Source of the DNA: a virus
Reading direction: 5' to 3' (one strand)
IMG/VR virus record: IMGVR_UViG_3300047095_000535
Span: 19,708 to 83,707 of that record
Length of the DNA stretch: 64,000 nucleotides
Position 1 is the stretch's first letter. Every line of letters starts with the position of its first letter. This document shows, one piece after another, positions 29,805-56,252 of the stretch. Under the pieces are notes generated by a model. It had not been told where the DNA came from and ran no database searches. It saw only the letters and a list, made by a program, of their open reading frames with translations. Made by a program: the position numbers and the translations under genes.

Positions 29805-31202
29805 ATGAAGTTAAGCGTATCAAAGGATGCAGACCCTAACTACCTTGCGGTTGTTGTAACTATTCCCGAAATCAAGCCTCACCCCAACGCAGACAAGTTG
29901 AGTTGTGTGGAGATTTTCGGGAATAGCATCATCATCGCCAAGGATATGTATGCGGTTGGTGAGAAGGTCGTGTATTTCCCGGTGGAATCATGCTTGAAAC
30001 CCGAGTTTTTGTCTTGGGCGAATCTGTTTGACAAACCGGAGCTGAATGCGGATGAAAAGACCAAGGGGTTTTTCCATGTCAAGGGTTGTCGTGTCAAAGC
30101 GATCAATCTGCGGCAGATGCCCTCTCAGGGATTTCTATACAAGACCGAACAACTGGCCAAGTACTATAAGATTTCCGATTCGGAGTTTAAAGTCGGGGAA
30201 TCCTTTGATACGGTGGGCGACCACCAATTAGTTACCAAATACATTAGACCGGAGAGTAACAGTGGTCAACAGAACTTCAAGAAGAGTAAGATCCCAGCAT
30301 GGGTGAACAACACTCTAGGATATCTTCCTAGACCCGTTCGTAGGATGGTATATCCGCCTATCAAGTGGTACTACAAGGTGGATGCCCAAGAGGGGTTCAA
30401 ATCCAGAATTGTCGAAGGGCAGTTTCATTACCACTATAAAACCGAGCATCTTGGCAAGAATATCTTCGCGCTGAATCCGGATGATAATATCACGATTACC
30501 CACAAGTGTCATGGTACATCCGCAATTTATGGAAACCTGCTTTGTAAGAGAAACCTGTCCCTTCTGGACAGATTATATAAGGCTTGTGGAAAAGCGGTAA
30601 AAGAAACTGAGTATAGATTGGTATACTCTTCTCGTTCCGTGGTCAAAAACCGGAAGGATGGAAGATACACGGACGATCTATGGGGTAAACACGCGGAAGA
30701 ATTGGAAGGTAGGATTCCAGAGGGGTACACCGTGTACTCCGAGATTGTTGGATGGGCGTCTTCCGGTAAAATGATCCAGAAGGACTACGACTATGGTATT
30801 ACTAGAGGCGAGTCCGAGCTTTGGGTGTATAGAATCACTCATACCGATGCCGAAGGGGTGATCAAAGAATTGTCTTGGAACGCTATCGATGTTTTCTGCA
30901 CCGAGTATGAACTGAAGATGGTCCCGGTTATTTGGGACGGATTCGACGGAGACGCCAAGGATGTTTTTCCTGATATCGTCATAGATGACAACTGGAGGGA
31001 TAACTTCCTACACAGGCTCAAGGAAACTTACCTAGACAAACCATGCGCGTTCTGCTCTACTGGCGTAGTCGGGGAGGGTATCGTGGTTAAAATCAATTCC
31101 AAGGAAGCTAAACCAGCGTTGAAGTTCAAATCTCCTTTATTCACAATTAAAGAATCGTCTGCTAGAGACGCAGGAGAAGTTGACATGGAGGAGGAAAGCT
31201 AA
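29805..31202 (+). CDS. RNA ligase (DRB0094/Rnl2-like, N-terminal OB domain)
   Basis: 'IKPHPNADKL', motif I 'ITHKCHGTS', 'YSEIVG', 'EGIVVK', 'LKFKS'. Confidence 0.85.
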   Translation: MKLSVSKDADPNYLAVVVTIPEIKPHPNADKLSCVEIFGNSIIIAKDMYAVGEKVVYFPVESCLKPEFLSWANLFDKPELNADEKTKGFFHVKGCRVKAINLRQMPSQGFLYKTEQLAKYYKISDSEFKVGESFDTVGDHQLVTKYIRPESNSGQQNFKKSKIPAWVNNTLGYLPRPVRRMVYPPIKWYYKVDAQEGFKSRIVEGQFHYHYKTEHLGKNIFALNPDDNITITHKCHGTSAIYGNLLCKRNLSLLDRLYKACGKAVKETEYRLVYSSRSVVKNRKDGRYTDDLWGKHAEELEGRIPEGYTVYSEIVGWASSGKMIQKDYDYGITRGESELWVYRITHTDAEGVIKELSWNAIDVFCTEYELKMVPVIWDGFDGDAKDVFPDIVIDDNWRDNFLHRLKETYLDKPCAFCSTGVVGEGIVVKINSKEAKPALKFKSPLFTIKESSARDAGEVDMEEES

Positions 31203-42888: not shown

Positions 42889-44001
42889 ATGAAAATATCT
42901 GAACAAATACTCCATTTTTTAAAAGCTCCTTCTGACGAGTTTAAGCTTAAGTATGGTCAGGTGTTTGGTAGAGACTGTGTGTTGATTACGCCTTCCGATA
43001 TGGGAACACATTGGAACGCGGAAAACTCAATTTTTCGTAGTTGTTTATGTGATTGTAACAGCGGGCAGATTTATAATATCGGGTTTCGAAAGTTTGTAAA
43101 CTTCTCCGAACGTCCGGAATATGAACCTTGGGATAACGAGTGGAAGGTAGAGGCTCGCCACAAAATAGATGGTTCACTGCTATGTATTTCAAAAATAGAT
43201 AAAAATGTATTGGCTAGAACCAGAGGGGTGTTTGATGCTACAGTTCATGAGACTGGAGACGAGATAGAAACGTTTAAAAATAAGTATCCCTTGGTTTTTG
43301 ATAATGAATATATAAACTCAGAAAGATACACGATATTATGCGAACATACTACACCAAATCGTGTCATAGTTATTAGAGAGCATTCAATACCTACTCTAAC
43401 CCTATTGGGTATTATATCCCACGACACTTGTAAATATGTGTCACAAGACGAGTTGGACGAGTGCGCTATTCGATGGGGAGTGAACCGTCCTGAAAAATAT
43501 GAATATGCTTCCGTTTCGGAATGTCTCGCGGATGTGGCGGCTTGGAAAGGTAAGGAAGGGGTGGTACTATGTTCTCCTGATGGACAAACCCTGAAGAAAA
43601 TCAAGGCGGATTTGTATCTGGAACTCCACAAGGTTTCTACGGGGTACACCAACATCAATCAGGTTTTGGACCTGTTCATGACCACTCCTCGATTTCCTGA
43701 TTGGAAGGACTTCTACACATATGTCGAAACCACTTTGGATTACGAGGTTGCGGAGAAGCTGTGTGGTCATATTGGCAAGATCAGCGACTCTTATAAACTG
43801 GTTCTGGAGCATATCGACAAGATTCACAAGGCGGTGGACATGGTTCGTGGACCTTCGTTCACCCGTAAGGATCAAGCTTTGTTTATTACAGGGCGTTGGG
43901 ACGATTGGAGAAAGGTAGCGGCGTTCCAGATACTTGACAACCGGGAATTGGATGATAAGGTTATCCGGAAGGGAATTGAGACTTACCTACTTTACGATTA
44001 A
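42889..44001 (+). CDS. RNA ligase 1 (T4 RnlA-like)
   Basis: 'GFRKFVNFSE', motif I 'HKIDGSL', 'CEHTTPNRVIV', 'KEGVV', 'KKIK'. Confidence 0.85.
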   Translation: MKISEQILHFLKAPSDEFKLKYGQVFGRDCVLITPSDMGTHWNAENSIFRSCLCDCNSGQIYNIGFRKFVNFSERPEYEPWDNEWKVEARHKIDGSLLCISKIDKNVLARTRGVFDATVHETGDEIETFKNKYPLVFDNEYINSERYTILCEHTTPNRVIVIREHSIPTLTLLGIISHDTCKYVSQDELDECAIRWGVNRPEKYEYASVSECLADVAAWKGKEGVVLCSPDGQTLKKIKADLYLELHKVSTGYTNINQVLDLFMTTPRFPDWKDFYTYVETTLDYEVAEKLCGHIGKISDSYKLVLEHIDKIHKAVDMVRGPSFTRKDQALFITGRWDDWRKVAAFQILDNRELDDKVIRKGIETYLLYD

Positions 44002-49910: not shown

Positions 49911-50153
49911 GTGGAGAAGATCCTATGTAATAACCCATGGGAAGGTCTGTGCTTTATGATGAACAAGGCACTTATTCGAGAAAAGCTGGACCTTCCGGTG
50001 ATGAAAAGCTTCAAGGACGATCCTAAGTTTTTTAAAAAATACGAAGTGCGGACATGTCCGGTGCTATTGGTGCTTGACAAAGGCAAGGTCGTTGATAGGA
50101 TTAAGGGGATTCAAGAAATTATAAACCATTTAAAAGAAGATGTACAAACTTAA
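49911..50153 (+). CDS. Thioredoxin-fold protein lacking canonical CxxC
   Basis: 'KYEVRTCPVLLVLDKGKVVDRIKG'; GTG 24 nt after promoter motif. Confidence 0.6.
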   Translation: MEKILCNNPWEGLCFMMNKALIREKLDLPVMKSFKDDPKFFKKYEVRTCPVLLVLDKGKVVDRIKGIQEIINHLKEDVQT

Positions 50154-50878
50154 TAATACCTCTCTCCTACTGGATACTTCTTTTTGCGGTTGTTGATGTT
50201 TTCAACTAATTTTAAATACTTATCATATTTTCTAACTAACCCTTTACTCTCTTTATCATAAAACAAGGAAAGAATGTTGCGTATGCTGTTTGTATTTTTT
50301 ACACCAAGGCAAGATGACCTATGGACGACTCCTGATGGTTTTTGTCTTTCATACTTCCATATTTTATACGAGGTATCATGCTTTTGTAGAAAAGTAGTGA
50401 GAGGGGACCAGTCTTGGTCTATACCTGACCAAAATTGTAAGGTTATTGATTTATTCGCCCCGTTTCCTATGTATAAACACCCATCCCCATCAAAGAAACC
50501 ATGCCAAAAGCAAGTCTCATACTGGTCTCCGATATGTTGTAATATTTTTCTAGGGCCGACTGTCTTATTTTTATAATCCATACTTATTAAAAAGTTCACC
50601 AAATGTTTATTTGAAGTGTTTAGTTGTGATTGTACGCTTCCGAACGGGAGTCCTTTCTTAACTCTTTGCCGTTCATAATAGTTCCAACTTCCTATAGATT
50701 CAAATGTAGGTAACAATGCCAACATATCTTCTTTTTTTAGTTCTACATTTATAGCGTTTTTATAAATTGTTCCATCTGCCCATAATAATCCTAATATATA
50801 TGAAAGTTCTTCGTTTATACTGGTTAAAAATTGAGTGTGGTCTACTCGATAAATTTTGGTTGGTTTGTCAGTCTTCAT
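50150..50878 (-). mobile_element. Free-standing LAGLIDADG homing endonuclease gene
   Basis: 'SYILGLLWADGTI' and 'FWHGFFDGDG'; antisense; AT-rich; TAAATA at 50884-50889. Confidence 0.85.
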
Positions 50879-50908
50879 ATTATTATTTAGTCATTCACGA
50901 AACGAAAT

Positions 50909-51580
50909 ATGGTTAAAATCATAAAATATCCTTGGGACGCTAGAAACACTATCTTTTTTAGTAGCGATTGGCATATATTTCATAATCCATCTTGGGACGT
51001 TCCTATTTGGAAAGCGCGAGGGTATTCTTCCGCAGAGGAACACGCGGAAGAAGCGTTGGCGACTATCAATTCGCGAGTAGGTGAAAACGATATATTATAT
51101 TTTCTAGGAGACATGTTTTTAAACGCTACAGACGAGCAGTGTATAGAGTGGTTGTCAAAGATCAAGTGTCAAAACATTATTAAGCTGTGGGGCAACCACC
51201 ATTCAAATATGTATAGGCTTTATAAGCAGGCGGTCAAGGATCGGTTCGCGTTTATCGATGATGTTACCGAGGTTTATCCTATTCGGATGAACAACGTTGT
51301 TTTCGCTGGTAATCATGTGGAGATCCGAGTCGGGAAGCAACACATTTCCATGAACCACTTTCCACAACATAGCTGGAACCACATGAATCCTAGGGCCAAG
51401 AGCTGGTGTCTATCCGGCCATTCCCATAACAGTGACCGTACGCGGAATCCCGACTCCCCAACCAACAGGTGTTTGGATTGTTCATGGGACTGGAAGAAAG
51501 ACGTTTGGTCGTGGACTGATATTGAGGACGTTATGTCCACAAAAACTTTTGTGGCGGTTGACCACCACAAAGACACTTGA
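50909..51580 (+). CDS. Calcineurin-like metallophosphoesterase
   Basis: 'SDWH', 'LGD', 'GNH', 'NHFP', 'GHSH'. Confidence 0.85.
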   Translation: MVKIIKYPWDARNTIFFSSDWHIFHNPSWDVPIWKARGYSSAEEHAEEALATINSRVGENDILYFLGDMFLNATDEQCIEWLSKIKCQNIIKLWGNHHSNMYRLYKQAVKDRFAFIDDVTEVYPIRMNNVVFAGNHVEIRVGKQHISMNHFPQHSWNHMNPRAKSWCLSGHSHNSDRTRNPDSPTNRCLDCSWDWKKDVWSWTDIEDVMSTKTFVAVDHHKDT

Positions 51581-51605
51581 CATTGCCCCTTGTCCGTGGT
51601 AAGAT
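51577..51605 (+). promoter_or_regulatory. Sigma70-like promoter
   Basis: TTGACA-N17-TAAGAT with extended -10 TG, 6 nt before ATG 51612. Confidence 0.65.
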
Positions 51606-51611
51606 ACTCTT

Positions 51612-51839
51612 ATGAATGCGATAGACAATGAAACACGACTAACGACTCTAGATAACAGAGTTCAGGAAATAGCCGCCATCTTATCTGGAGGGAATACGTA
51701 TGTTTCTTCCGAGAGGTATGACGAGTTGATGGACGAACTTAAGATTATACAAGCGAAGTTGGAAGACATGGAGATAGAACTACAGGTGGAAGACTTCTTA
51801 GCCAATGGTGCGGGGCGGTCAAGAGACGTGGAATACTGA
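51612..51839 (+). CDS. Hypothetical coiled-coil protein
   Basis: 75-aa ORF after the sigma70-like promoter. Confidence 0.6.
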   Translation: MNAIDNETRLTTLDNRVQEIAAILSGGNTYVSSERYDELMDELKIIQAKLEDMEIELQVEDFLANGAGRSRDVEY

Positions 51840-51847
51840 TTTCATAT

Positions 51848-52111
51848 ATGGAAACACAAACAATGAATACACAAAACAGATCGACCAAGAGCAGTCGTAA
51901 AAATAGACGGTGGATGCGTAATCCAAACCAATTAAAGAACCCTAAGATTTACTCCATGAAGGTTCTTAGAAACCCTGATGGATCGTTCCATGTGATCGGT
52001 GGCAATACACAGGTTCTCATGCGGAAGAACCAACACGCACTGGAATGGGTCAATGTGGACACCCGAGACTTTACCCGCGAACTGAAGAGTTCACGTATTA
52101 CTAGCTTCTAA
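51848..52111 (+). CDS. Hypothetical basic protein
   Basis: 87-aa Arg/Lys-rich ORF. Confidence 0.6.
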   Translation: METQTMNTQNRSTKSSRKNRRWMRNPNQLKNPKIYSMKVLRNPDGSFHVIGGNTQVLMRKNQHALEWVNVDTRDFTRELKSSRITSF

Positions 52112-52116
52112 CCTCA

Positions 52117-52149
52117 TGCTGGCAAATCTCTTAAGTGGGGATGCCAGCA
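52117..52149 (+). terminator. Hairpin / possible terminator
   Basis: TGCTGGCA..TGCCAGCA stem, weak U tract. Confidence 0.4.
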
Positions 52150-52202
52150 ACTTTACCTCAATAAACACTAGAACATAATAACAGCACAACACGACAGACA
52201 AT

Positions 52203-52658
52203 ATGAATATCGCACAATCGCTTAAGGAAAAGAACCGAATCGCTGGCAGGATCAACAAGCTTCAGAAGAAGGTTGAGGATTACAACGTCAAGGAGATCAA
52301 TGAGGTTAAGGACTTTGATAGTCTGGAGCTTTTGAAGGAACTACAGACGGAATGGGCGTACCTCATTGATATCAAGTCCCGGTTGGCTAGAGCCAACATC
52401 GGCATTTGTGAGAAACTTGTGCGATTGGCGGAAGCTAAGAGCGAACTGTCTTTCTGGAGTTGTTTCCATAACGCGGGACAAGCGGCGGAAACCTATCTCC
52501 ATCGGTACAACGACGGAGAGAAGATCGTTTCCGAGCAACGGACGAAGGTTTCCTTAATTACTTCCAAGGAAGTTACGGATCACCAAGAGCGGGTTCAAAC
52601 CATGATCGACACACTCCAAGACGAGATCGACATTTACAACGGAACCACACAGATTTAA
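52203..52658 (+). CDS. DIP1984/DUF6847-like coiled-coil protein
   Basis: 'MNIAQSLKEKNRIAGRINKLQ..ELLKEL..LIDIKSRLARAN..IDTLQDEIDIYNGTTQI' follows the family pattern. Confidence 0.65.
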   Translation: MNIAQSLKEKNRIAGRINKLQKKVEDYNVKEINEVKDFDSLELLKELQTEWAYLIDIKSRLARANIGICEKLVRLAEAKSELSFWSCFHNAGQAAETYLHRYNDGEKIVSEQRTKVSLITSKEVTDHQERVQTMIDTLQDEIDIYNGTTQI

Positions 52659-52664
52659 CCCCCT

Positions 52665-52863
52665 TTTCAGACTGGTTGGACAAGAAGAAGGATATTACCT
52701 CATTCGGTCTAATGAACTACATAATAGATAACGATATTGACATTGAAACAGTGCGTCTTCGGACTATGCGCTACAAAATTCAAGATTCAAAACTTTGTGT
52801 TCAACCCTTAAAGATGAAAAAACAAAAATTAGCTTTCTTTCTAATTTGAAAACCAGTCTGAAA
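52665..52863 (+). ncRNA. Putative ~200-nt structured RNA
   Basis: Perfect 13-bp closing stem TTTCAGACTGGTT/AACCAGTCTGAAA; internal C(UUCG)G hairpin at 52755-52764; no ORF in the track. Confidence 0.6.
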
Positions 52864-52913
52864 CCCTCTTCATTAAACACTACAATATACTAAATATATA
52901 ACAACAAGCTTTC

Positions 52914-52972
52914 GTCACCAGCTACCAGATGGGATATTATCTGTAAACAATCCTCCTGTCTAATCCGGTGAC
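52914..52972 (+). ncRNA. Structured RNA repeat, copy 1
   Basis: GTCACC-AGCTACC-AGATGGGA-loop-TCCTGTCT-AATCC-GGTGAC. Confidence 0.7.
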
Positions 52973-52981
52973 AATTTATTT

Positions 52982-53044
52982 AGGTTCAGCTACCGATAGG
53001 GATATTATTTATTAGGAAACAACACTCCTTATCTATTCGAACCT
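52982..53044 (+). ncRNA. Structured RNA repeat, copy 2
   Basis: AGGTTC-AGCTACC-GATAGGGA-loop-TCCTTATC-TATTC-GAACCT. Confidence 0.7.
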
Positions 53045-53053
53045 TTTTTCTCA

Positions 53054-53086
53054 CCCGTTCATTTGGTGAAAATCTAAATGAGCGGG
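53054..53086 (+). other. 13-bp hairpin with T-loop-like 7-nt loop
   Basis: CCCGTTCATTTGG-TGAAAAT-CTAAATGAGCGGG. Confidence 0.6.
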
Positions 53087-53092
53087 CCTTAT

Positions 53093-53156
53093 CCACCAGC
53101 TACCAGAAGAGATATTTTAACCTCAAATTAAACAACACTCTCTTCTAATTCGGTGG
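53093..53156 (+). ncRNA. Structured RNA repeat, copy 3 (followed by T10)
   Basis: CCACC-AGCTACC-AGAAGAGA-loop-TCTCTTCT-AATTC-GGTGG. Confidence 0.7.
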
Positions 53157-53193
53157 TTTTTTTTTTCGTTAAACACTAAAGTATAAAACACAC

Positions 53194-55263
53194 ATGAACA
53201 TCGCAGCTAATAGATACTATATCGCGAATAAAGGGGCAACCAACAAGGTTTCATGGGCTATCGCCAATGCGATGGCTACGGAATTGGCTTGTTATAATAT
53301 CGGTGTAAGCCGTCCCCTGATGGAAGCTATCGCATCCAATACCAACAAGGACGCGATGGATTTCTGTAAGCAGATTCTCAAGGACTATACTGTAGGAAAA
53401 CTCAATCCGCCTTTGTTCAAGAATTGGGAGGATCGGGCCTATTTTTCCTTCGATGAAATGATTGTGCAGATTTTCGGATACATTCTTCAAATCTCTGGCA
53501 ACGATCTGGAAAGCGAAGGGTACATGGAAGATATCTTATCCAAGGCGCAATACACCAAGGCTAAGACTCTTCAATTGGTTACTCTGGACGAGGCGTTGGA
53601 CAAGTTCCAAAGTCTAGTCGATGTGAGGGTTTCCTTGGGTAAGAAGGCACAAAAGACCTTACAGGAAGCGGGAGAAGACTTCGCGGATGTTATCAGTATT
53701 TATAATAAGCGGATTTATAGCGACGAAGCTAGGATCGCCGTGCTTATGGGACTTCTTAATAGAGTCTCTCTTTACACCGCGTTGGGTATGCTGAAGTGCA
53801 AGCCCGCCGACGTACTTCGTTATGCGGCGGCATTACATGACTTCGGCGGTGTTAAGCTACCCTATGACGTTATCTATGGTAAGCTGTCATGGGCGGATCG
53901 GGTTGCCTTGTTGGGATATCTCAACGATTACTTTGAACATGACGAACTCATGGAAGCAATGGGTAACAATCGGGAAGCTTGGAACAGATTCTTCAAGCAT
54001 CTTCACGTCTTCCAACAAAAGGGATTTGTAAATAGATTCCCCTATGTCGGGGTTTCCGCAAGGGTTTCCAATGGACATAAGATGGATAGTTTTCCCTCTG
54101 CGTACGCTGGTATTCTAAAGACTTTGGCGGGGGAAGACCTGATCGAAGTTTTACCTACTGGTAACACGGTGTATAGAACCTTCGCGTCCCGTATCACTTC
54201 AGCTATCGAGGAAAAGAGTTTCGATAAGATCTATAAGCTTCTGAATAAGAACGCCGGATATCTTCTTCGCAATCTTGCTTCTGTTTCCAATGGAATCGGT
54301 AAGAAGGATGAGAAGGACTTCGTAGGGTTTGTCCGCACCAAGTTGAACACCGCGTCTCCTGATGTATTGTTCTCAATTCTTAGTCTTGATATGGACGCGG
54401 AATACCGTGTAATCGATGTGAAGGGTAATACTGTCATCCAACCCGCGAGTTATCCTAAAGTCATTGGAGATATCCAAGGGGATATCCGTAGGGTTATCCA
54501 TGAACGCTGGGGATATAAGGGCAAGGTGATCGTTGAGGATGGATTGGAAGATAACATCGTTCCGTTCTTGGCTAAGAACACCAACCTACAACGTGGAACG
54601 CGGATTCCTTTCGAAGATAAGGACAGTATTTACTTCTACATGCATTGGGTTCAATCTCAAAAATGTCGGACGGATCTGGATTCCAGTTATATCGCGTTCG
54701 ACAAAAACTGGAACTCCACTACGATCTACTTTGGTAATCAAGCCAACTCTTTCATAACTCATGGTGGAGATATCACCAGTGCTCCCGCACCTAATGGTGC
54801 TACGGAGTATGGAAGAATCCGGTTGGATCGTATTCCCAAAACAGTGAAGTATATTGTTCCGATTATCAACGTATACACCGGGGAATCATTCTCCGAGTTG
54901 AAGGAAGCGTATGCGGGATTCATGTTCTCCAATAGCAACAGTTTTAAAATCAAAGACTCCCATGTTCGGTATGACCTAACTAATCCTGCTAACTCCAATG
55001 TCCCCTTCATTGTGGATGTGGATAATCGGGAGATCATCGTAATGGATTATAATAGTCGGACGAGACTTGGGTTCACCGCCCATTCCGAGATCGACAATAT
55101 GAAGAAGCTGATTTCTGCGGTTCAAACCAAGAACTATATCACTATCCAAAAGCTGGCGGATATGCTGTCGGGAGATAGTGACGAGGTTTCATTGGAGATT
55201 CGCAAATCTGTCAGGAGAGACGATGAAATCGCTCCCGAATCACTGGCGACCTTGTTTAAATGA
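53194..55263 (+). CDS. Large helical (TROVE-like) protein with C-terminal TerD-like domain
   Basis: C-terminal 'YMHW..RTDLDSS..THGGDITSAPAPNGATEY..INVYTGESF' is TerD-like. N-terminal helical region has 'LNPPLFKNW', 'PADVLRYA', 'AGYLLRNL'. Confidence 0.7.
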   Translation: MNIAANRYYIANKGATNKVSWAIANAMATELACYNIGVSRPLMEAIASNTNKDAMDFCKQILKDYTVGKLNPPLFKNWEDRAYFSFDEMIVQIFGYILQISGNDLESEGYMEDILSKAQYTKAKTLQLVTLDEALDKFQSLVDVRVSLGKKAQKTLQEAGEDFADVISIYNKRIYSDEARIAVLMGLLNRVSLYTALGMLKCKPADVLRYAAALHDFGGVKLPYDVIYGKLSWADRVALLGYLNDYFEHDELMEAMGNNREAWNRFFKHLHVFQQKGFVNRFPYVGVSARVSNGHKMDSFPSAYAGILKTLAGEDLIEVLPTGNTVYRTFASRITSAIEEKSFDKIYKLLNKNAGYLLRNLASVSNGIGKKDEKDFVGFVRTKLNTASPDVLFSILSLDMDAEYRVIDVKGNTVIQPASYPKVIGDIQGDIRRVIHERWGYKGKVIVEDGLEDNIVPFLAKNTNLQRGTRIPFEDKDSIYFYMHWVQSQKCRTDLDSSYIAFDKNWNSTTIYFGNQANSFITHGGDITSAPAPNGATEYGRIRLDRIPKTVKYIVPIINVYTGESFSELKEAYAGFMFSNSNSFKIKDSHVRYDLTNPANSNVPFIVDVDNREIIVMDYNSRTRLGFTAHSEIDNMKKLISAVQTKNYITIQKLADMLSGDSDEVSLEIRKSVRRDDEIAPESLATLFK

Positions 55264-55598
55264 ACAAGTTCCATAAACTATTCAATGTAAAGCCCGCCCA
55301 TTTCAAAGATGGGTGGGCTTTCTTCGATCAAATCGACAAGCATACCATACAACAGGCGATGGCCATGGGTGGGAAGTTCGTACCCAATGGCAGTTTTATC
55401 AAGATCGTATTATTGTTGAAGGTATTTCCCGAGCTTATGGTATTCGGGCGGGTACATGAAACCAGCATGGATATCAAACTGGAAGGTTTGGTAGGCTTTG
55501 TGTTGGATGGTAAGAGTACCTCCCCTTTGAACTGGTTCTTTCCTGATGTCGAGAAGAAGAAGGTCACTACCAATTACGTATACGTGGATGTGAGTTAA
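55260..55598 (+). CDS. Hypothetical protein
   Basis: ATGA coupling; contains a strong hairpin near its start. Confidence 0.45.
   Translation: MNKFHKLFNVKPAHFKDGWAFFDQIDKHTIQQAMAMGGKFVPNGSFIKIVLLLKVFPELMVFGRVHETSMDIKLEGLVGFVLDGKSTSPLNWFFPDVEKKKVTTNYVYVDVS
55289..55321 (+). terminator. Terminator-like hairpin after the TerD-domain gene
   Basis: AAAGCCCGCCCAT-TTCAAAG-ATGGGTGGGCTTT. Confidence 0.55.
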
Positions 55599-55619
55599 AC
55601 ACTAGATTATCATAGGGGT

Positions 55620-56252
55620 ATGCTCTGCAAGTACAAACGAACCTACCATCTGCCATGGTCATTGGGTATTACCAGTGACGATAAGATGTTGAAGGATGTT
55701 TCATGCTTCGATGGAAAGACAGTGGTAATCACTGAGAAGATGGATGGTGAGAATACCACCCTATATAGGGATTATTACCATGCCCGATCATTGGATAGCA
55801 AGCATCATCCTTCGCGATCATACGTGAAGCAGATTCACGCACAAATCTGTAGGGACATTCCTACGGGATGGCGGATCTGTGGAGAGAATCTTTACGCCAA
55901 ACATTCAATCGGGTATGACAATCTGAGATCATACTTCTATTGTTTCTCCGTTTGGGATGAGAACAACCTTTGTTTGTCTTGGGCTGACACACTGGCATGT
56001 TGTGAGGTTTTGGGTATAGAGGTCGTTCCGGTCATTCGTCCTGATATGTTATGGGACGAAGCGGTTATTCGGGCGATTGATGTAGACCCTATCTTACAGG
56101 AGGGATACGTGGTAAGAAACGCGGACGCCTTCCATTATGATGATTTTGAAAACAACGTGGCGAAGTATGTTCGTCACAACCACGTTGTCACAACCGAACA
56201 CTGGATGCACTCTACTATAGAACCAAACAAACTAATAAACACTACAACATAA
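55620..56252 (+). CDS. ATP-dependent RNA ligase family protein (stand-alone adenylyltransferase domain)
   Basis: 'KYKRTYHLPWS', motif I 'TEKMDGENTT', 'CGENLYAKHSI', 'EGYVVR', 'AKYVR'. Confidence 0.85.
   Translation: MLCKYKRTYHLPWSLGITSDDKMLKDVSCFDGKTVVITEKMDGENTTLYRDYYHARSLDSKHHPSRSYVKQIHAQICRDIPTGWRICGENLYAKHSIGYDNLRSYFYCFSVWDENNLCLSWADTLACCEVLGIEVVPVIRPDMLWDEAVIRAIDVDPILQEGYVVRNADAFHYDDFENNVAKYVRHNHVVTTEHWMHSTIEPNKLINTTT

What the first reader, a model, noticed from the sequence alone, without database searches (positions are those of the whole stretch)
52203..52863. DIP1984-like gene followed by a ~200-nt closed structured RNA with short periodic repeats
Seen: 6 nt after the stop, a perfect 13-bp stem (52665-52677 with 52851-52863) encloses about 175 nt of non-coding sequence. 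Inside are a possible inner stem AGAAGAAGG/CTTTCTTTCT, a C(UUCG)G hairpin (52755-52764, extendable to 52751-52771), and tandem units ATTGAC-ATTGAA and CAAAATT-CAAGATT-CAAAACT. Its 'AGAAGAAGGA-TATT..AAACAA..TTTCT-AATT' frame echoes the three small repeats downstream, but it lacks AGCTACC. Inference: an ncRNA partner for the coiled-coil protein, perhaps with one subunit binding each short repeat, or a large member of the adjacent RNA family.
Basis: partly seen in the sequence, partly recalled or inferred. Interest (0 to 1): 0.72.

Follow-up and report, generated by a model that had tools for sequence, protein, structure and literature searches.

The report
Phage heptad-repeat RNA with partner protein
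Right behind a small helical-protein gene, this phage encodes a real, conserved, folded RNA of about 200 bases that carries a row of 7-base units; the same uncatalogued gene-plus-RNA pair recurs in other phages and in bacteria, several times beside RNA-repair genes, so the two are probably halves of an undescribed protein-RNA particle.

Summary
A perfect 13-bp stem (52665-52677 with 52851-52863) starts 6 nt after the stop of a 151-aa gene and encloses 173 nt. Inside are an inner stem, small hairpins, a GAUAAY-type hexamer motif, a UUCG hairpin and about 9 heptads.

Comparison shows it is a genuine RNA family. A covariance model finds one copy on the gene's strand, downstream of the gene, in 34 of 62 sources. 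All 19 modelled pairs show compensatory changes (87% paired; 27-46% when slid). UYAR units are spaced exactly 7 nt apart in 68% of cases (5.6% in shuffles). No Rfam family matches, and no paper was found on the protein family.

The protein is a distant DIP1984/DUF6847 relative (best fold match 3KDQ). Bacterial relatives sit in Rtc RNA-repair operons (RtcR, Ro60-like, RtcA, RtcB). The phage copy lies among a phosphoesterase and RNA ligases.

Best reading: a dedicated protein-RNA particle, with protein subunits on the heptad array, acting in RNA-damage handling. Binding and function are inferred, not shown.

The link to the three small hairpins downstream is not supported. The window's own heptad periodicity is weak taken alone.

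This scan has noted the same pair before on other DNA (at least 8 genomes).

The parts
52162..52182 (+). Phage promoter-like motif (TAAACACTA box) upstream of the 151-aa gene. It is the only such box before the RNA, so gene and RNA are probably one transcript.
   Evidence: TAAACACTA occurs 26 times in the window, all on the + strand; 0.62 expected. The boxes sit at gene starts. Transcription itself was not shown.
52203..52658 (+). Gene for a 151-aa helical protein, a distant relative of the DIP1984/DUF6847 family and the presumed protein partner.
   Evidence: ORF listed. 22 close homologues. 1490 cluster representatives at E <= 0.001. AlphaFold2 pLDDT 91, four long helices plus a beta-hairpin. 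Best PDB fold match 3kdq, prob 1.0, TM 0.48-0.55, E 0.018. DIP1984_fam matched by 22 of 22 members at E <= 1, all below the cut-off.
52665..52863 (+). The whole heptad-repeat RNA element (199 nt), from the 5' arm to the 3' arm of closing stem P1.
   Evidence: Covariance models R1 and R2 hit 52663-52865 at 181 and 150 bits. It is the only significant copy in the 83.7-kb record. Fold z = -3.17.
52665..52677 (+). P1, 5' arm (13 nt).
   Evidence: Perfect complement of 52851-52863. All 13 family P1 pairs show compensatory change, 91% paired.
52851..52863 (+). P1, 3' arm (13 nt). Its first base is A here and G in L016/L017, which turns a U-A pair into U-G on the + strand.
52678..52682 (+). 5' side of the conserved internal loop between P1 and P2 (GGAYR or GAGUA type in the family). 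It faces the GAAR-type 3' side at about 52843-52850.
   Evidence: Alignments A4, A5 and A6. The likeness to loop-E/sarcin-ricin motifs is recalled, not tested.
52683..52691 (+).
   Evidence: Pairs with 52833-52842. Family helices 2 and 3 have 6 of 6 pairs with compensatory change, 75-86% paired.
52833..52842 (+). P2, 3' strand (CTTTCTTTCT).
52689..52714 (+). Two small variable hairpins: AGG/CCU with an AUAUUA loop, and CAUU/AAUG with a 6-nt loop.
   Evidence: MFE structure. The differences from L016/L017 here fall in the loops. This region varies in number and length of hairpins across the family.
52727..52749 (+). Conserved purine-rich hexamer motif (GAUAAY-GAUAUU-GAYAUU-GA), probably single-stranded.
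   Evidence: Best conserved block of the family alignment. No consistent pairing partner was found in a column-pair scan.
52751..52771 (+). P4 hairpin with a UUCG tetraloop.
   Evidence: A hairpin of at least 4 bp at this position in 29 of 32 elements, with differing stems. UUCG is present in 16 of 32.
52774..52836 (+). Heptad tract of about 9 units of 7 nt. Four units carry an exact UYAR core (UUCAAG, UUCAAA, UUCAAC, CUUAAA); the others are degenerate.
   Evidence: In the family, 109 of 161 successive UYAR spacings are exactly 7 nt, against 5.6% in shuffles.
52874..52894 (+). Next promoter-like box, 10 nt after P1. It marks the 3' boundary of the unit and heads the three small hairpin RNAs, not this RNA.

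Best explanation
The 199-nt stretch 52665-52863 is a non-coding RNA made as the tail of the mRNA of the 151-aa gene (promoter-like box at 52162; no box in between).

It folds into a closed shape. A 13-bp stem P1, a conserved internal loop and a second stem P2 clamp the two ends together. Within that frame lie small hairpins, a conserved hexamer motif, a UUCG hairpin and a probably unpaired row of about 8-9 heptads with a UYAR core.

The most likely working model is a dedicated ribonucleoprotein. Several copies of the DIP1984-fold protein made from the same transcript bind the evenly spaced heptads, one unit or one pair of units per subunit. The clamped ends protect the RNA and fix the geometry.

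The company the pair keeps suggests what the particle does. In bacteria it sits with RtcR, RtcA, RtcB and a Ro60-like protein. Here it sits with a phosphoesterase and RNA ligases. This points to sensing or handling of damaged RNA or tRNA, and in a phage presumably to countering RNA-cutting host defences.

Shown: the structure is conserved, gene and RNA are genetically coupled, the heptads are periodic, and the repair-gene neighbourhood exists.

Inferred: transcription, protein binding, stoichiometry and function.
For: Gene-RNA coupling
- Model R2 finds the element at E <= 0.01 in 34 of 62 sources, always on the gene's strand and downstream of the gene. In 16 of 34 it begins within 7 nt of the stop codon.
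- The protein gene and the RNA diverge together from 89% down to about 30% protein identity.
- RNA-first test: R2 run over 151 bacterial genomes hit 3. Two of these lie next to the gene or its C-terminal end; the third is a plain satellite.

Structure
- 19 of 19 pairs show compensatory change. 87.2% of cells are paired, against 56% in column shuffles (0 of 500 reach it) and 27-46% when partners are slid.
- A naive helix search, with no model, found perfect 10-14-bp enclosing stems of unrelated sequence in at least 15 loci.
- G-U pairs outnumber A-C 31 to 15, favouring the + strand RNA.
- Against the nearest relative the RNA region is 93-94% identical while the gene is 87%.
- It carries two 1-nt indels that would break the 57-codon ORF.

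Heptads
- Lag 7 is the best lag in 25 of 31 elements.
- UYAR spacing is exactly 7 nt in 68% of cases, against 5.6% in shuffles.

Context (Pfam, unless stated)
- L062: RtcR upstream.
- L065: Ro60-vWA protein upstream, RtcB downstream.
- L069: RtcA downstream.
- L070: RtcA and RtcB downstream.
- Window: phosphoesterase 50909-51580 and RNA ligase 55620-56252, plus two more ligase-like genes.
- The order phosphoesterase, 87-aa gene, this gene, RNA is kept in L002, L004, L022/23, L025 and L016/17.
- In GC-rich bacterial loci a classical terminator follows the element, so it lies inside the gene's transcript (read by eye).

The protein family is large and uniform in size: 1490 representatives, about 145-160 aa.
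Against: - No experiment or RNA-seq shows the RNA exists, is stable, or binds the protein.
- The window's own heptads are degenerate: only 4 exact UYAR cores, and the periodicity is not significant alone (787 of 5000 shuffles).
- 28 of 62 sources gave no R2 hit at E <= 0.01. Six of these have too little sequence after the stop. For the GC-rich ones the element was recognised only by eye.
- The covariation counts come from alignments fitted to the model.
- The protein has no recognised RNA-binding domain, and its fold match is to a protein of unknown function.
- The repair-gene neighbourhood was checked by Pfam in only 4 bacterial loci. In phage loci tRNA genes lie within 3.5 kb in only a minority: 8 of 56 loci scanned.
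Confidence: 0.6

Rival explanations
1. Cis-acting regulatory tail, on the model of HutP or TRAP. The protein binds the periodic units in its own transcript to control termination, read-through into the downstream genes (rtcB/rtcA in bacteria), or its own mRNA stability and translation. No free-standing particle is formed.
For: The layout matches the hut operon as recalled: a small regulator gene, an RNA with short units at 7-nt spacing, a terminator, then structural genes. In bacterial loci a strong terminator follows the element directly, ahead of rtcB/rtcA. In several phage loci a U-run follows the 3' arm of P1 (by eye).
Against: In the window no terminator-like site follows the element on the + strand, and the next genes have their own promoter-like boxes. 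The heptads lie inside a closed P1/P2 frame and do not overlap the terminator hairpin in the bacterial loci (by eye). Downstream genes differ widely between phage loci. No HutP or TRAP domain is present.
Confidence: 0.2
2. The RNA works on its own or with a host factor, as a decoy, sponge or small regulatory RNA, for instance soaking up a host RNA-binding protein or an RNA-cutting toxin. It is merely co-transcribed with the neighbouring gene.
For: A row of short A-rich single-stranded units in a stable frame resembles sponge RNAs such as CsrB or CrcZ (recalled). Many heptads read like 7-nt anticodon loops (Y-U-YAA-R-N; my own reading, untested). RNA-repair genes nearby suggest a conflict over RNA cleavage.
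Against: Gene and RNA stay coupled in the same order and strand from phages to Verrucomicrobiota-type bacteria. A host-factor sponge would be unlikely to keep that coupling across such different hosts. The UYAR core is kept across these hosts.
Confidence: 0.12
3. Toxin-antitoxin-like pair of type III. The protein is harmful and the repeat RNA neutralises it.
For: A repeat-bearing RNA is genetically fixed next to a small protein gene. The pair occurs on mobile elements (phages).
Against: The gene order is reversed relative to ToxIN as recalled (RNA repeats first, then a terminator, then the toxin). The units are 7 nt, not about 36 nt. The fold is helical, not an endoribonuclease fold. There is no PADLOC hit. 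In bacteria the pair sits inside Rtc repair operons.
Confidence: 0.04
4. No dedicated function. The stretch is a plain terminator or mRNA-stabilising 3' structure, a miniature inverted-repeat mobile element, a degenerate small gene, or a large member of the neighbouring small-hairpin family.
For: There are terminal inverted repeats of 13 bp. A 57-codon ORF spans 52676-52849. One 11-nt and one 14-nt match link it to the small repeats.
Against: There is a single significant copy in the record. Its position and strand relative to one gene family are fixed across distant genomes. Internal motifs are conserved far beyond a closing stem. The ORF is broken by two 1-nt indels in the nearest relative and has no PHROG hit. 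The small hairpins are not hit by the models and fold differently.
Confidence: 0.04

Closest known systems
Ro60 (Rsr) with Y RNAs in bacterial rsr-Y RNA-rtcB-rtcA operons. This is recalled; the review by Sim et al. 2020 was seen only as a reference in PMC7824862. The abstract start of PMC7790460 on the RtcR operon was seen.
   Same: A non-coding RNA whose two ends pair into a long stem is encoded next to its protein partner's gene, inside RtcR/RtcB/RtcA RNA-repair operons. In locus L065 the pair lies between a Ro60-like gene and rtcB. Phages carry such modules too (PMC7824862, passages read).
   Different: The protein is a 151-aa helical DIP1984-fold protein, not a TROVE ring. No Y RNA or other Rfam family matches. 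The RNA carries a heptad array rather than a tRNA-like module. In L065 a separate tRNA-like RNA follows rtcB, so the two systems coexist and do not replace each other.
HutP with hut mRNA, and TRAP with the trp leader, in Bacillus subtilis (recalled).
   Same: A small protein of about 150 aa is encoded just upstream of an RNA that presents short conserved units at regular spacing. HutP sites also repeat every 7 nt. This suggests that an oligomer reads the array.
   Different: There is no HutP or TRAP domain. The core is UYAR, not NAG. There are 8-9 units in one run inside a closed two-stem frame. The pair occurs in phages without a following terminator. A regulatory role is unproven.
DIP1984 family / Pfam DUF6847 (NF038048, PF20935); crystal structure 3KDQ of a Corynebacterium diphtheriae protein of unknown function.
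   Same: Same length class and same best-matching fold. The family models match 22 of 22 and 17 of 22 close homologues at weak E-values. One bona fide member (L204, 168 bits) is also followed by a 330-nt non-coding tail, with heptad-like CACA units seen by eye.
   Different: The window's protein scores far below both curated cut-offs. A profile of the family does not find 3KDQ by sequence. No function is known for the family: papers found for DUF6847, 0; for DIP1984, 1 irrelevant; for 3KDQ, 2 irrelevant. 'Septicolysin' was seen only in search listings, whose titles are mostly genome and plasmid surveys.
Type III toxin-antitoxin systems such as ToxIN (recalled).
   Same: A repeat-bearing RNA is genetically tied to one small protein gene on mobile elements.
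   Different: The order is reversed, the units are 7 nt rather than about 36 nt, the fold is helical and non-nuclease, and there is no PADLOC hit.
Large ornate phage RNAs (GOLLD, ROOL) and the RAGATH-27 motif. These were named as closest by earlier notes of this scan.
   Same: Structured non-coding RNAs of unknown function in phage genomes, often near tRNA genes.
   Different: None of these Rfam families matched here at E <= 10 in the window region, nor in 28 related loci. No paper holds the term RAGATH-27 in the library searched.

Membership tests
DIP1984 family (NCBIfam NF038048) | Whole-protein score at or above the curated cut-off of 70 bits | tested here: not met
   Window protein: 12.8 bits, E 0.099. 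All 22 close homologues match at E <= 1 (best 3.3e-9) but below the cut-off. The model found nothing at E <= 0.01 in 5 genomes that hold relatives of this protein.
Pfam DUF6847 (PF20935) | Match above Pfam's gathering score | tested here: not met
   No Pfam hit for the window protein at E <= 0.1. 17 of 22 homologues match at E <= 1, best 3.5e-06. 3 of 22 carry a precomputed PF20935 label.
DIP1984 fold (PDB 3KDQ) | Structural similarity of a confident model to the solved family member | tested here: inconclusive
   AlphaFold2 pLDDT 91. 3kdq is the top Foldseek hit: prob 1.0, TM 0.48-0.55, rmsd 7.3-7.6, E 0.018, above the 0.001 line. The second-look aligners were not available.
Any Rfam 15 RNA family | Covariance-model match to the element | tested here: not met
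   The only match in 50000-56000 at E <= 10 is a chance bantam hit at 18.7 bits against a gathering score of 61. Nothing lies on the element in 28 related loci.
Ro60 / Y RNA module | Partner protein with a TROVE domain | tested here: not met
   The 151-aa protein has no TROVE hit and a different fold. The neighbouring 689-aa protein also lacks one: Pfam finds TerD only, and Foldseek finds TerD only among significant hits.
Ro60 / Y RNA module | RNA encoded within an rtcB/rtcA repair operon beside its partner gene | tested here: met
   Met in the bacterial relatives L062, L065, L069 and L070. In the window the neighbours are a phosphoesterase and ATP-dependent RNA ligases, not RtcB.
HutP-type antiterminator system | HutP protein domain | tested here: not met
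   No Pfam hit. The model is a helical bundle plus a beta-hairpin.
HutP-type antiterminator system | Short RNA units at regular spacing, read by an oligomer, controlling a terminator | tested here: inconclusive
   The regular 7-nt spacing of UYAR units is met. A terminator follows in bacterial loci (by eye) but not in the window. Binding and control cannot be tested here.
Type III toxin-antitoxin (ToxIN-like) | Tandem RNA repeats upstream of an endoribonuclease toxin gene | tested here: not met
   The RNA lies downstream of the gene. There is no nuclease fold or PADLOC match.
The neighbouring small-hairpin RNA family (52914-53160) | Outer stem, AGCUACC internal loop, 8-bp inner stem, large loop | tested here: not met
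   The large element lacks AGCUACC. It folds differently. Models of the large element do not hit the small hairpins.
Miniature inverted-repeat mobile element | Multiple dispersed copies per genome | tested here: not met
   One significant copy in the 83.7-kb record; two other hits at E 0.09 and 0.22. The record is estimated to be only 41% complete.

The most novel reading that the evidence does not exclude
The DIP1984-fold protein and its heptad RNA form a second, so far unrecognised ribonucleoprotein module of RNA-repair systems, alongside Ro60/Y RNA. An oligomer of the protein is laid out on a ruler of 8-9 UYAR heptads held in a clamped RNA frame. The particle would recognise or present damaged tRNA/RNA to ligases such as RtcB or the phage Rnl enzymes. 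Alternatively it would offer anticodon-loop-like heptads as bait for RNA-cutting toxins. Phages would have taken it over to survive tRNA-cleaving host defences. Because P1 brings the two RNA ends together beside ligase genes, the RNA might even be sealed into a circle.
Probability: 0.3. Interest if true: 0.88.

Novelty: categorically new. Interest (0 to 1): 0.8.

Why it matters
The protein family has about 1500 representative clusters at 50% identity and a crystal structure, yet no known function. This finding would give it a concrete partner: a structured RNA with an unusual, almost crystalline row of 7-nt units.

The pair sits in RtcR/RtcB/RtcA operons of bacteria and among RNA-healing and sealing genes of phages. 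It therefore offers a new, directly testable entry into how cells and phages sense and mend cleaved RNA, a field where Ro60/Y RNA has been the only known RNA-protein module.

For RNA biology it adds an uncatalogued family with clear covariation. It may also be a new way for a protein oligomer to read an RNA.

Tried and rejected
Coding reading. The 57-codon ORF 52676-52849 has a TTG start and no PHROG hit. Two 1-nt indels break it in the nearest relative. Rejected.

Mobile element or DNA repeat. There is a single significant copy at a fixed place and strand. Rejected.

Known RNA family. Four Rfam searches gave nothing on the element.

Same family as the three small hairpins. Rejected.

Pairing between the hexamer motif and the heptads. 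A column-pair scan of alignment A5 gave only isolated pairs outside P1 and P2, with no run of neighbouring pairs. I treat both tracts as unpaired.

First alignment attempt. RNAalifold on the MAFFT alignment A3 gave no structure at all because one row (L019) was misaligned. Dropping that row gave P1 and P2.

RNA-first scan of viral contigs. A degenerate 20-nt pattern of the hexamer motif was non-specific. It also reads as Asp-Asn repeats in giant-virus genes. Only 1 of 80 loci gave an R2 hit, and that one lies in coding sequence with no partner gene.

The idea that the neighbouring 689-aa protein is Ro60/TROVE-like. Pfam and Foldseek find only its TerD domain. Not supported.

Defence-system membership. 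No PADLOC hit for 7 local proteins.

Named phages. The 151-aa protein finds only two unannotated 'uncultured phage' records, and the DNA finds none. So no link to a studied phage could be made here. The phage T5 link in earlier notes was not tested.

Rows dropped before the model searches: L001, L017, L021, L023, L029, L038, L041, L042 and L049. They are the same contig as, or near-identical to, L005, L016, L003, L022, L008, L036, L039/L040 and L048. For the counts I used the 34 best rows of A6 (E <= 0.01) with identical rows merged. The 9 weaker rows were left out. Four of them lie at the expected place (L035, L063, L043, L046) and five elsewhere.

Supplementary files of papers were not asked for. 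The jumbo-phage survey PMC7824862 points to supplements that might list this gene family.
Full report
What is in the window.

The 151-aa ORF 52203-52658 ends with TAA. Six bases later a perfect 13-bp inverted repeat (52665-52677 with 52851-52863) encloses 173 nt. The + strand of 52660-52868 folds at -44.7 kcal/mol, with z = -3.17 and 0 of 200 shuffles as good. The - strand is unremarkable, with z = -1.57 and 14 of 200.

Reading inwards from the closing stem there are:
- a short internal loop;
- a second stem (52683-52691 with 52833-52842);
- two small hairpins (52689-52714);
- a purine-rich hexamer motif (52727-52749);
- a UUCG-capped hairpin (52751-52771);
- a tract of about nine 7-nt units (52774-52836).

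Tandem Repeats Finder sees only 2.7 copies of the heptad. The window's lag-7 signal alone is matched by 787 of 5000 shuffles. The periodicity claim therefore rests on the family, not on this copy.

Setting in the phage.

The record is an 83.7-kb fragment of a tailed phage, with a tail sheath and a T4-type terminase. CheckV estimates it to be 41% complete. The 9-mer TAAACACTA occurs 26 times in the window, all on the + strand, against 0.62 expected. It almost always lies just before a start codon, so I read it as a phage promoter; this is inference.

One box lies at 52162 before the gene. None lies between gene and RNA. The next is at 52874, 10 nt after the closing stem. So the RNA is most simply the tail of the gene's transcript. 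No terminator-like site follows it on the + strand.

The neighbouring genes are:
- a phosphoesterase (50909-51580; phrog_547, 3.3e-33);
- a 689-aa TerD-domain protein (53194-55263);
- an RNA ligase (55620-56252; PF09414, 2.7e-31);
- farther away, an Rnl1-like ligase and an OB-fold ligase-like gene, and NAMPT.

The protein.

Pfam, PHROGs and PADLOC give no hit for the window's copy. Its 22 close homologues match NCBIfam DIP1984_fam in 22 of 22 cases (best 3.3e-9). They match Pfam DUF6847 in 17 of 22 (best 3.5e-6). All scores are below the curated cut-offs.

An AlphaFold2 model (pLDDT 91) shows four long helices and a beta-hairpin. Its best PDB match is 3kdq, an uncharacterised Corynebacterium diphtheriae protein: prob 1.0, TM 0.48-0.55, E 0.018. 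A profile search of 1.84 billion representatives finds 1490 relatives at E <= 0.001; the 150 listed are nearly all 140-165 aa.

I call it a distant DIP1984-fold relative, not a member by the curated tests.

The RNA is a family.

I collected loci encoding relatives: 1 plus 14 viral, 45 metagenomic and 10 from genomes. Most have 200-500 nt without an ORF after the gene.

A naive search for perfect helices found 10-14-bp stems of unrelated sequence in at least 15 loci. Each encloses 160-260 nt. Most start right after the stop codon; the others lie 240-320 nt further downstream.

An 11-sequence alignment gave P1 and P2 by RNAalifold. Model R1, built from it, found 34 matches in 62 sources. The rebuilt model R2 found 34 matches at E <= 0.01. 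Each is on the gene's strand and downstream of the gene.

R2 also gave nine weaker matches (E 0.08-0.93). Four lie at the expected place and five elsewhere.

Of the 28 sources without a good hit, six have too little sequence after the stop. In the GC-rich ones I see the same layout by eye only: closing stem, GAUAUUGA-type motif, hairpin, heptads, then a terminator.

Covariation and strand.

On the 33 distinct rows of A5, all 19 modelled pairs show changes on both sides. 87.2% of cells pair, against 56.0% in column shuffles (0 of 500 reach it) and 26.9-45.7% when partners are slid by 1-3 columns. A6 gives the same picture. These alignments are fitted to the model, which inflates pairing. The slid controls and the model-free result argue that P1 is real.

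Other points:
- G-U pairs outnumber A-C 31 to 15, as expected if the gene's strand is the RNA.
- A hairpin of at least 4 bp sits between the hexamer motif and the heptads in 29 of 32 elements, with differing stems. UUCG occurs in 16 of 32.
- Against the nearest relative (protein 89% identical), the coding DNA is 87% identical and the RNA region 93-94% identical.
- The differences there fall mostly in loops or linkers, or turn a U-A pair into U-G. Two 1-nt indels rule out the 57-codon ORF.

The heptads.

Lag 7 is the best autocorrelation lag in 25 of 31 elements. In 32 elements the core UYAR occurs 4-8 times (median 6). 109 of 161 successive spacings are exactly 7 nt and 25 are 14 nt. In shuffles the shares are 5.6% and 3.6%.

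The window has four exact cores, at spacings of 7, 14 and 7 nt. I found no consistent pairing of the heptads or of the hexamer motif with anything else. They are probably displayed single-stranded inside the P1/P2 clamp.

Coupling tested from the RNA side.

R2 run over 151 genomes of the phylum of locus L065 hit three:
- one next to the gene;
- one next to the gene's conserved C-terminal end at a contig break;
- one plain CTTAAAA satellite.

In a 201-genome sample of that phylum the gene occurs in 7 genomes. The five loci new to me all show the element by eye, two of them by R2. In the phage's own record there is one significant copy.

Company it keeps.

Pfam on bacterial neighbours shows:
- L062: RtcR upstream.
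- L065: a Ro60-vWA protein upstream and RtcB downstream. A further tRNA-like RNA follows rtcB.
- L069: RtcA downstream.
- L070: RtcA and RtcB downstream.

In phages, the order phosphoesterase, 87-aa gene, this gene, RNA recurs in five further lineages. A homologue of the window's 689-aa TerD protein lies just upstream of the gene in bacterial loci L037/41/42. tRNA genes lie within 3.5 kb in 8 of 56 loci.

The jumbo-phage survey PMC7824862 (passages read) describes RtcB, Rnl1/Rnl2, phosphoesterases and ROT/TROVE with a tRNA-like partner as phage RNA-repair kit. The passages I saw do not mention this pair.

What it most likely is.

The fixed order, strand and distance, and the co-divergence from phages to bacteria, show a functional pair. 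So do the conserved closing frame and the ruler-like array of short cores next to a small, highly conserved protein.

I put a dedicated ribonucleoprotein acting in RNA-damage handling first (0.6). A HutP/TRAP-like cis-regulatory tail comes second (0.2). It fits the bacterial layout with a terminator before rtcB/rtcA, but fits poorly with the phage, where each gene has its own promoter-like box and no terminator follows. A stand-alone decoy or sponge RNA (0.12), a type III toxin-antitoxin-like pair (0.04) and trivial readings (0.04) follow.

Binding, stoichiometry, stability and function are all inferred.

Known or new.

No Rfam 15 family matches the element here or in 28 related loci. Literature searches gave:
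- DUF6847: 0 papers.
- DIP1984: 1, a hospital surveillance paper seen in the listing only.
- 3KDQ: 2, unrelated by title.
- RAGATH-27: 0.
- 'Septicolysin': 34, seen as a listing only; the titles are mostly genome and plasmid surveys.
- A search on RtcB with noncoding RNA and heptamer repeats gave nothing relevant among the 10 papers listed.

This scan's own earlier notes describe the same gene-plus-RNA pair in at least eight other genomes. I read those notes after searches had given me the same picture. They agree with it, but they are not independent evidence.

One bona fide DIP1984 member (L204, 168 bits) also has a 330-nt non-coding tail. It has a weak tRNA-like match (20 bits against a gathering score of 47) and CACA heptads seen by eye. 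Its fold energy is not special (z = -0.99) and R2 does not hit it. Whether the RNA accompanies the whole family therefore stays open.

Noticed in passing
window 20691-63282 (26 sites), e.g. 52162, 52874, 53170, 55596: The 9-mer TAAACACTA occurs 26 times, all on the + strand (0.62 expected). It usually lies 24 nt before a start codon, so many mRNAs may be leaderless or nearly so. Similar boxes precede genes in related loci (L001/L005, L004, L061).
   Followed up: partly
window 52914-53160: Three 59-68-nt hairpin units lie behind their own promoter-like box, with no ORF. Each has a covarying outer stem, an invariant AGCUACC internal loop, a covarying 8-bp inner stem and a large loop. The third ends in a run of 10 T. 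They are conserved in L016/L017 only, among the loci seen here.
   Followed up: partly
window 53054-53086: An 11-bp hairpin sits between small-hairpin units 2 and 3, unrelated in sequence to them (I8).
   Followed up: no
window 53194-55263; L037 205-2937: The 689-aa protein has a helical N-terminal part of unknown fold plus a TerD domain (AlphaFold2 pLDDT 85; Foldseek finds TerD only, no Ro60). A 910-aa homologue lies directly upstream of the DIP1984-like gene in bacterial loci L037/41/42, so it may be a third component of the system.
   Followed up: partly
L065 843-2423 and 4445-4578: A Ro60-vWA/TROVE-like gene precedes the DIP1984-like gene. A 134-nt match to the Rfam tRNA model (45 bits), not called by ARAGORN, follows rtcB. 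It is possibly a Y-RNA-like tRNA mimic in the same operon.
   Followed up: no
L003, L004, L006, L020 (and, less clearly, L061), between the stop codon and the large RNA: In these loci a further small conserved structured element sits between the gene and the heptad RNA. It is a closing stem with a short hairpin whose 7-nt loop is conserved (by eye).
   Followed up: no
L204 1954-2285: A bona fide DIP1984 family gene (168 bits) in a GC-rich genome is followed by a 330-nt non-coding tail. It has a T-arm-like hairpin (weak tRNA-Sec match, 20 bits), a run of CACA heptads and a terminator. Model R2 does not hit it.
   Followed up: partly
window 29805-31202, 42889-44001, 55620-56252: There are three different RNA-ligase-like genes in one 64-kb window: OB-fold plus RNA_ligase, T4 Rnl1-like, and a short RNA_ligase. 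NAMPT and a phosphoesterase are also present. This is an unusually rich RNA-repair kit.
   Followed up: partly
window 52774-52815 and family alignment A6: Many heptads read Y-U-YAA-R-N, the layout of a 7-nt anticodon loop with leucine-type anticodons (my reading, from recalled tRNA rules). A first-reader note on this genome sees anticodon-loop-like heptamers in the loops of the small hairpins too. This could be chance in A/U-rich sequence.
   Followed up: no
control genomes: Among 14 well-known control genomes only Deinococcus radiodurans holds a DIP1984_fam member above the cut-off. It is the classic organism for Ro60/Y RNA work and would be a convenient place to test the pair.
   Followed up: no
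L201 (G069:C133) about 1400-1570: A plain tandem satellite of about 25 CTTAAAA units in a bacterial genome gave a false partial match to the heptad part of model R2.
   Followed up: yes
whole record G000: The record is estimated to be 41% complete. A protein identical to the 151-aa one is on record on a 141-kb contig. So the phage genome is probably much larger than the 83.7 kb held.
   Followed up: no
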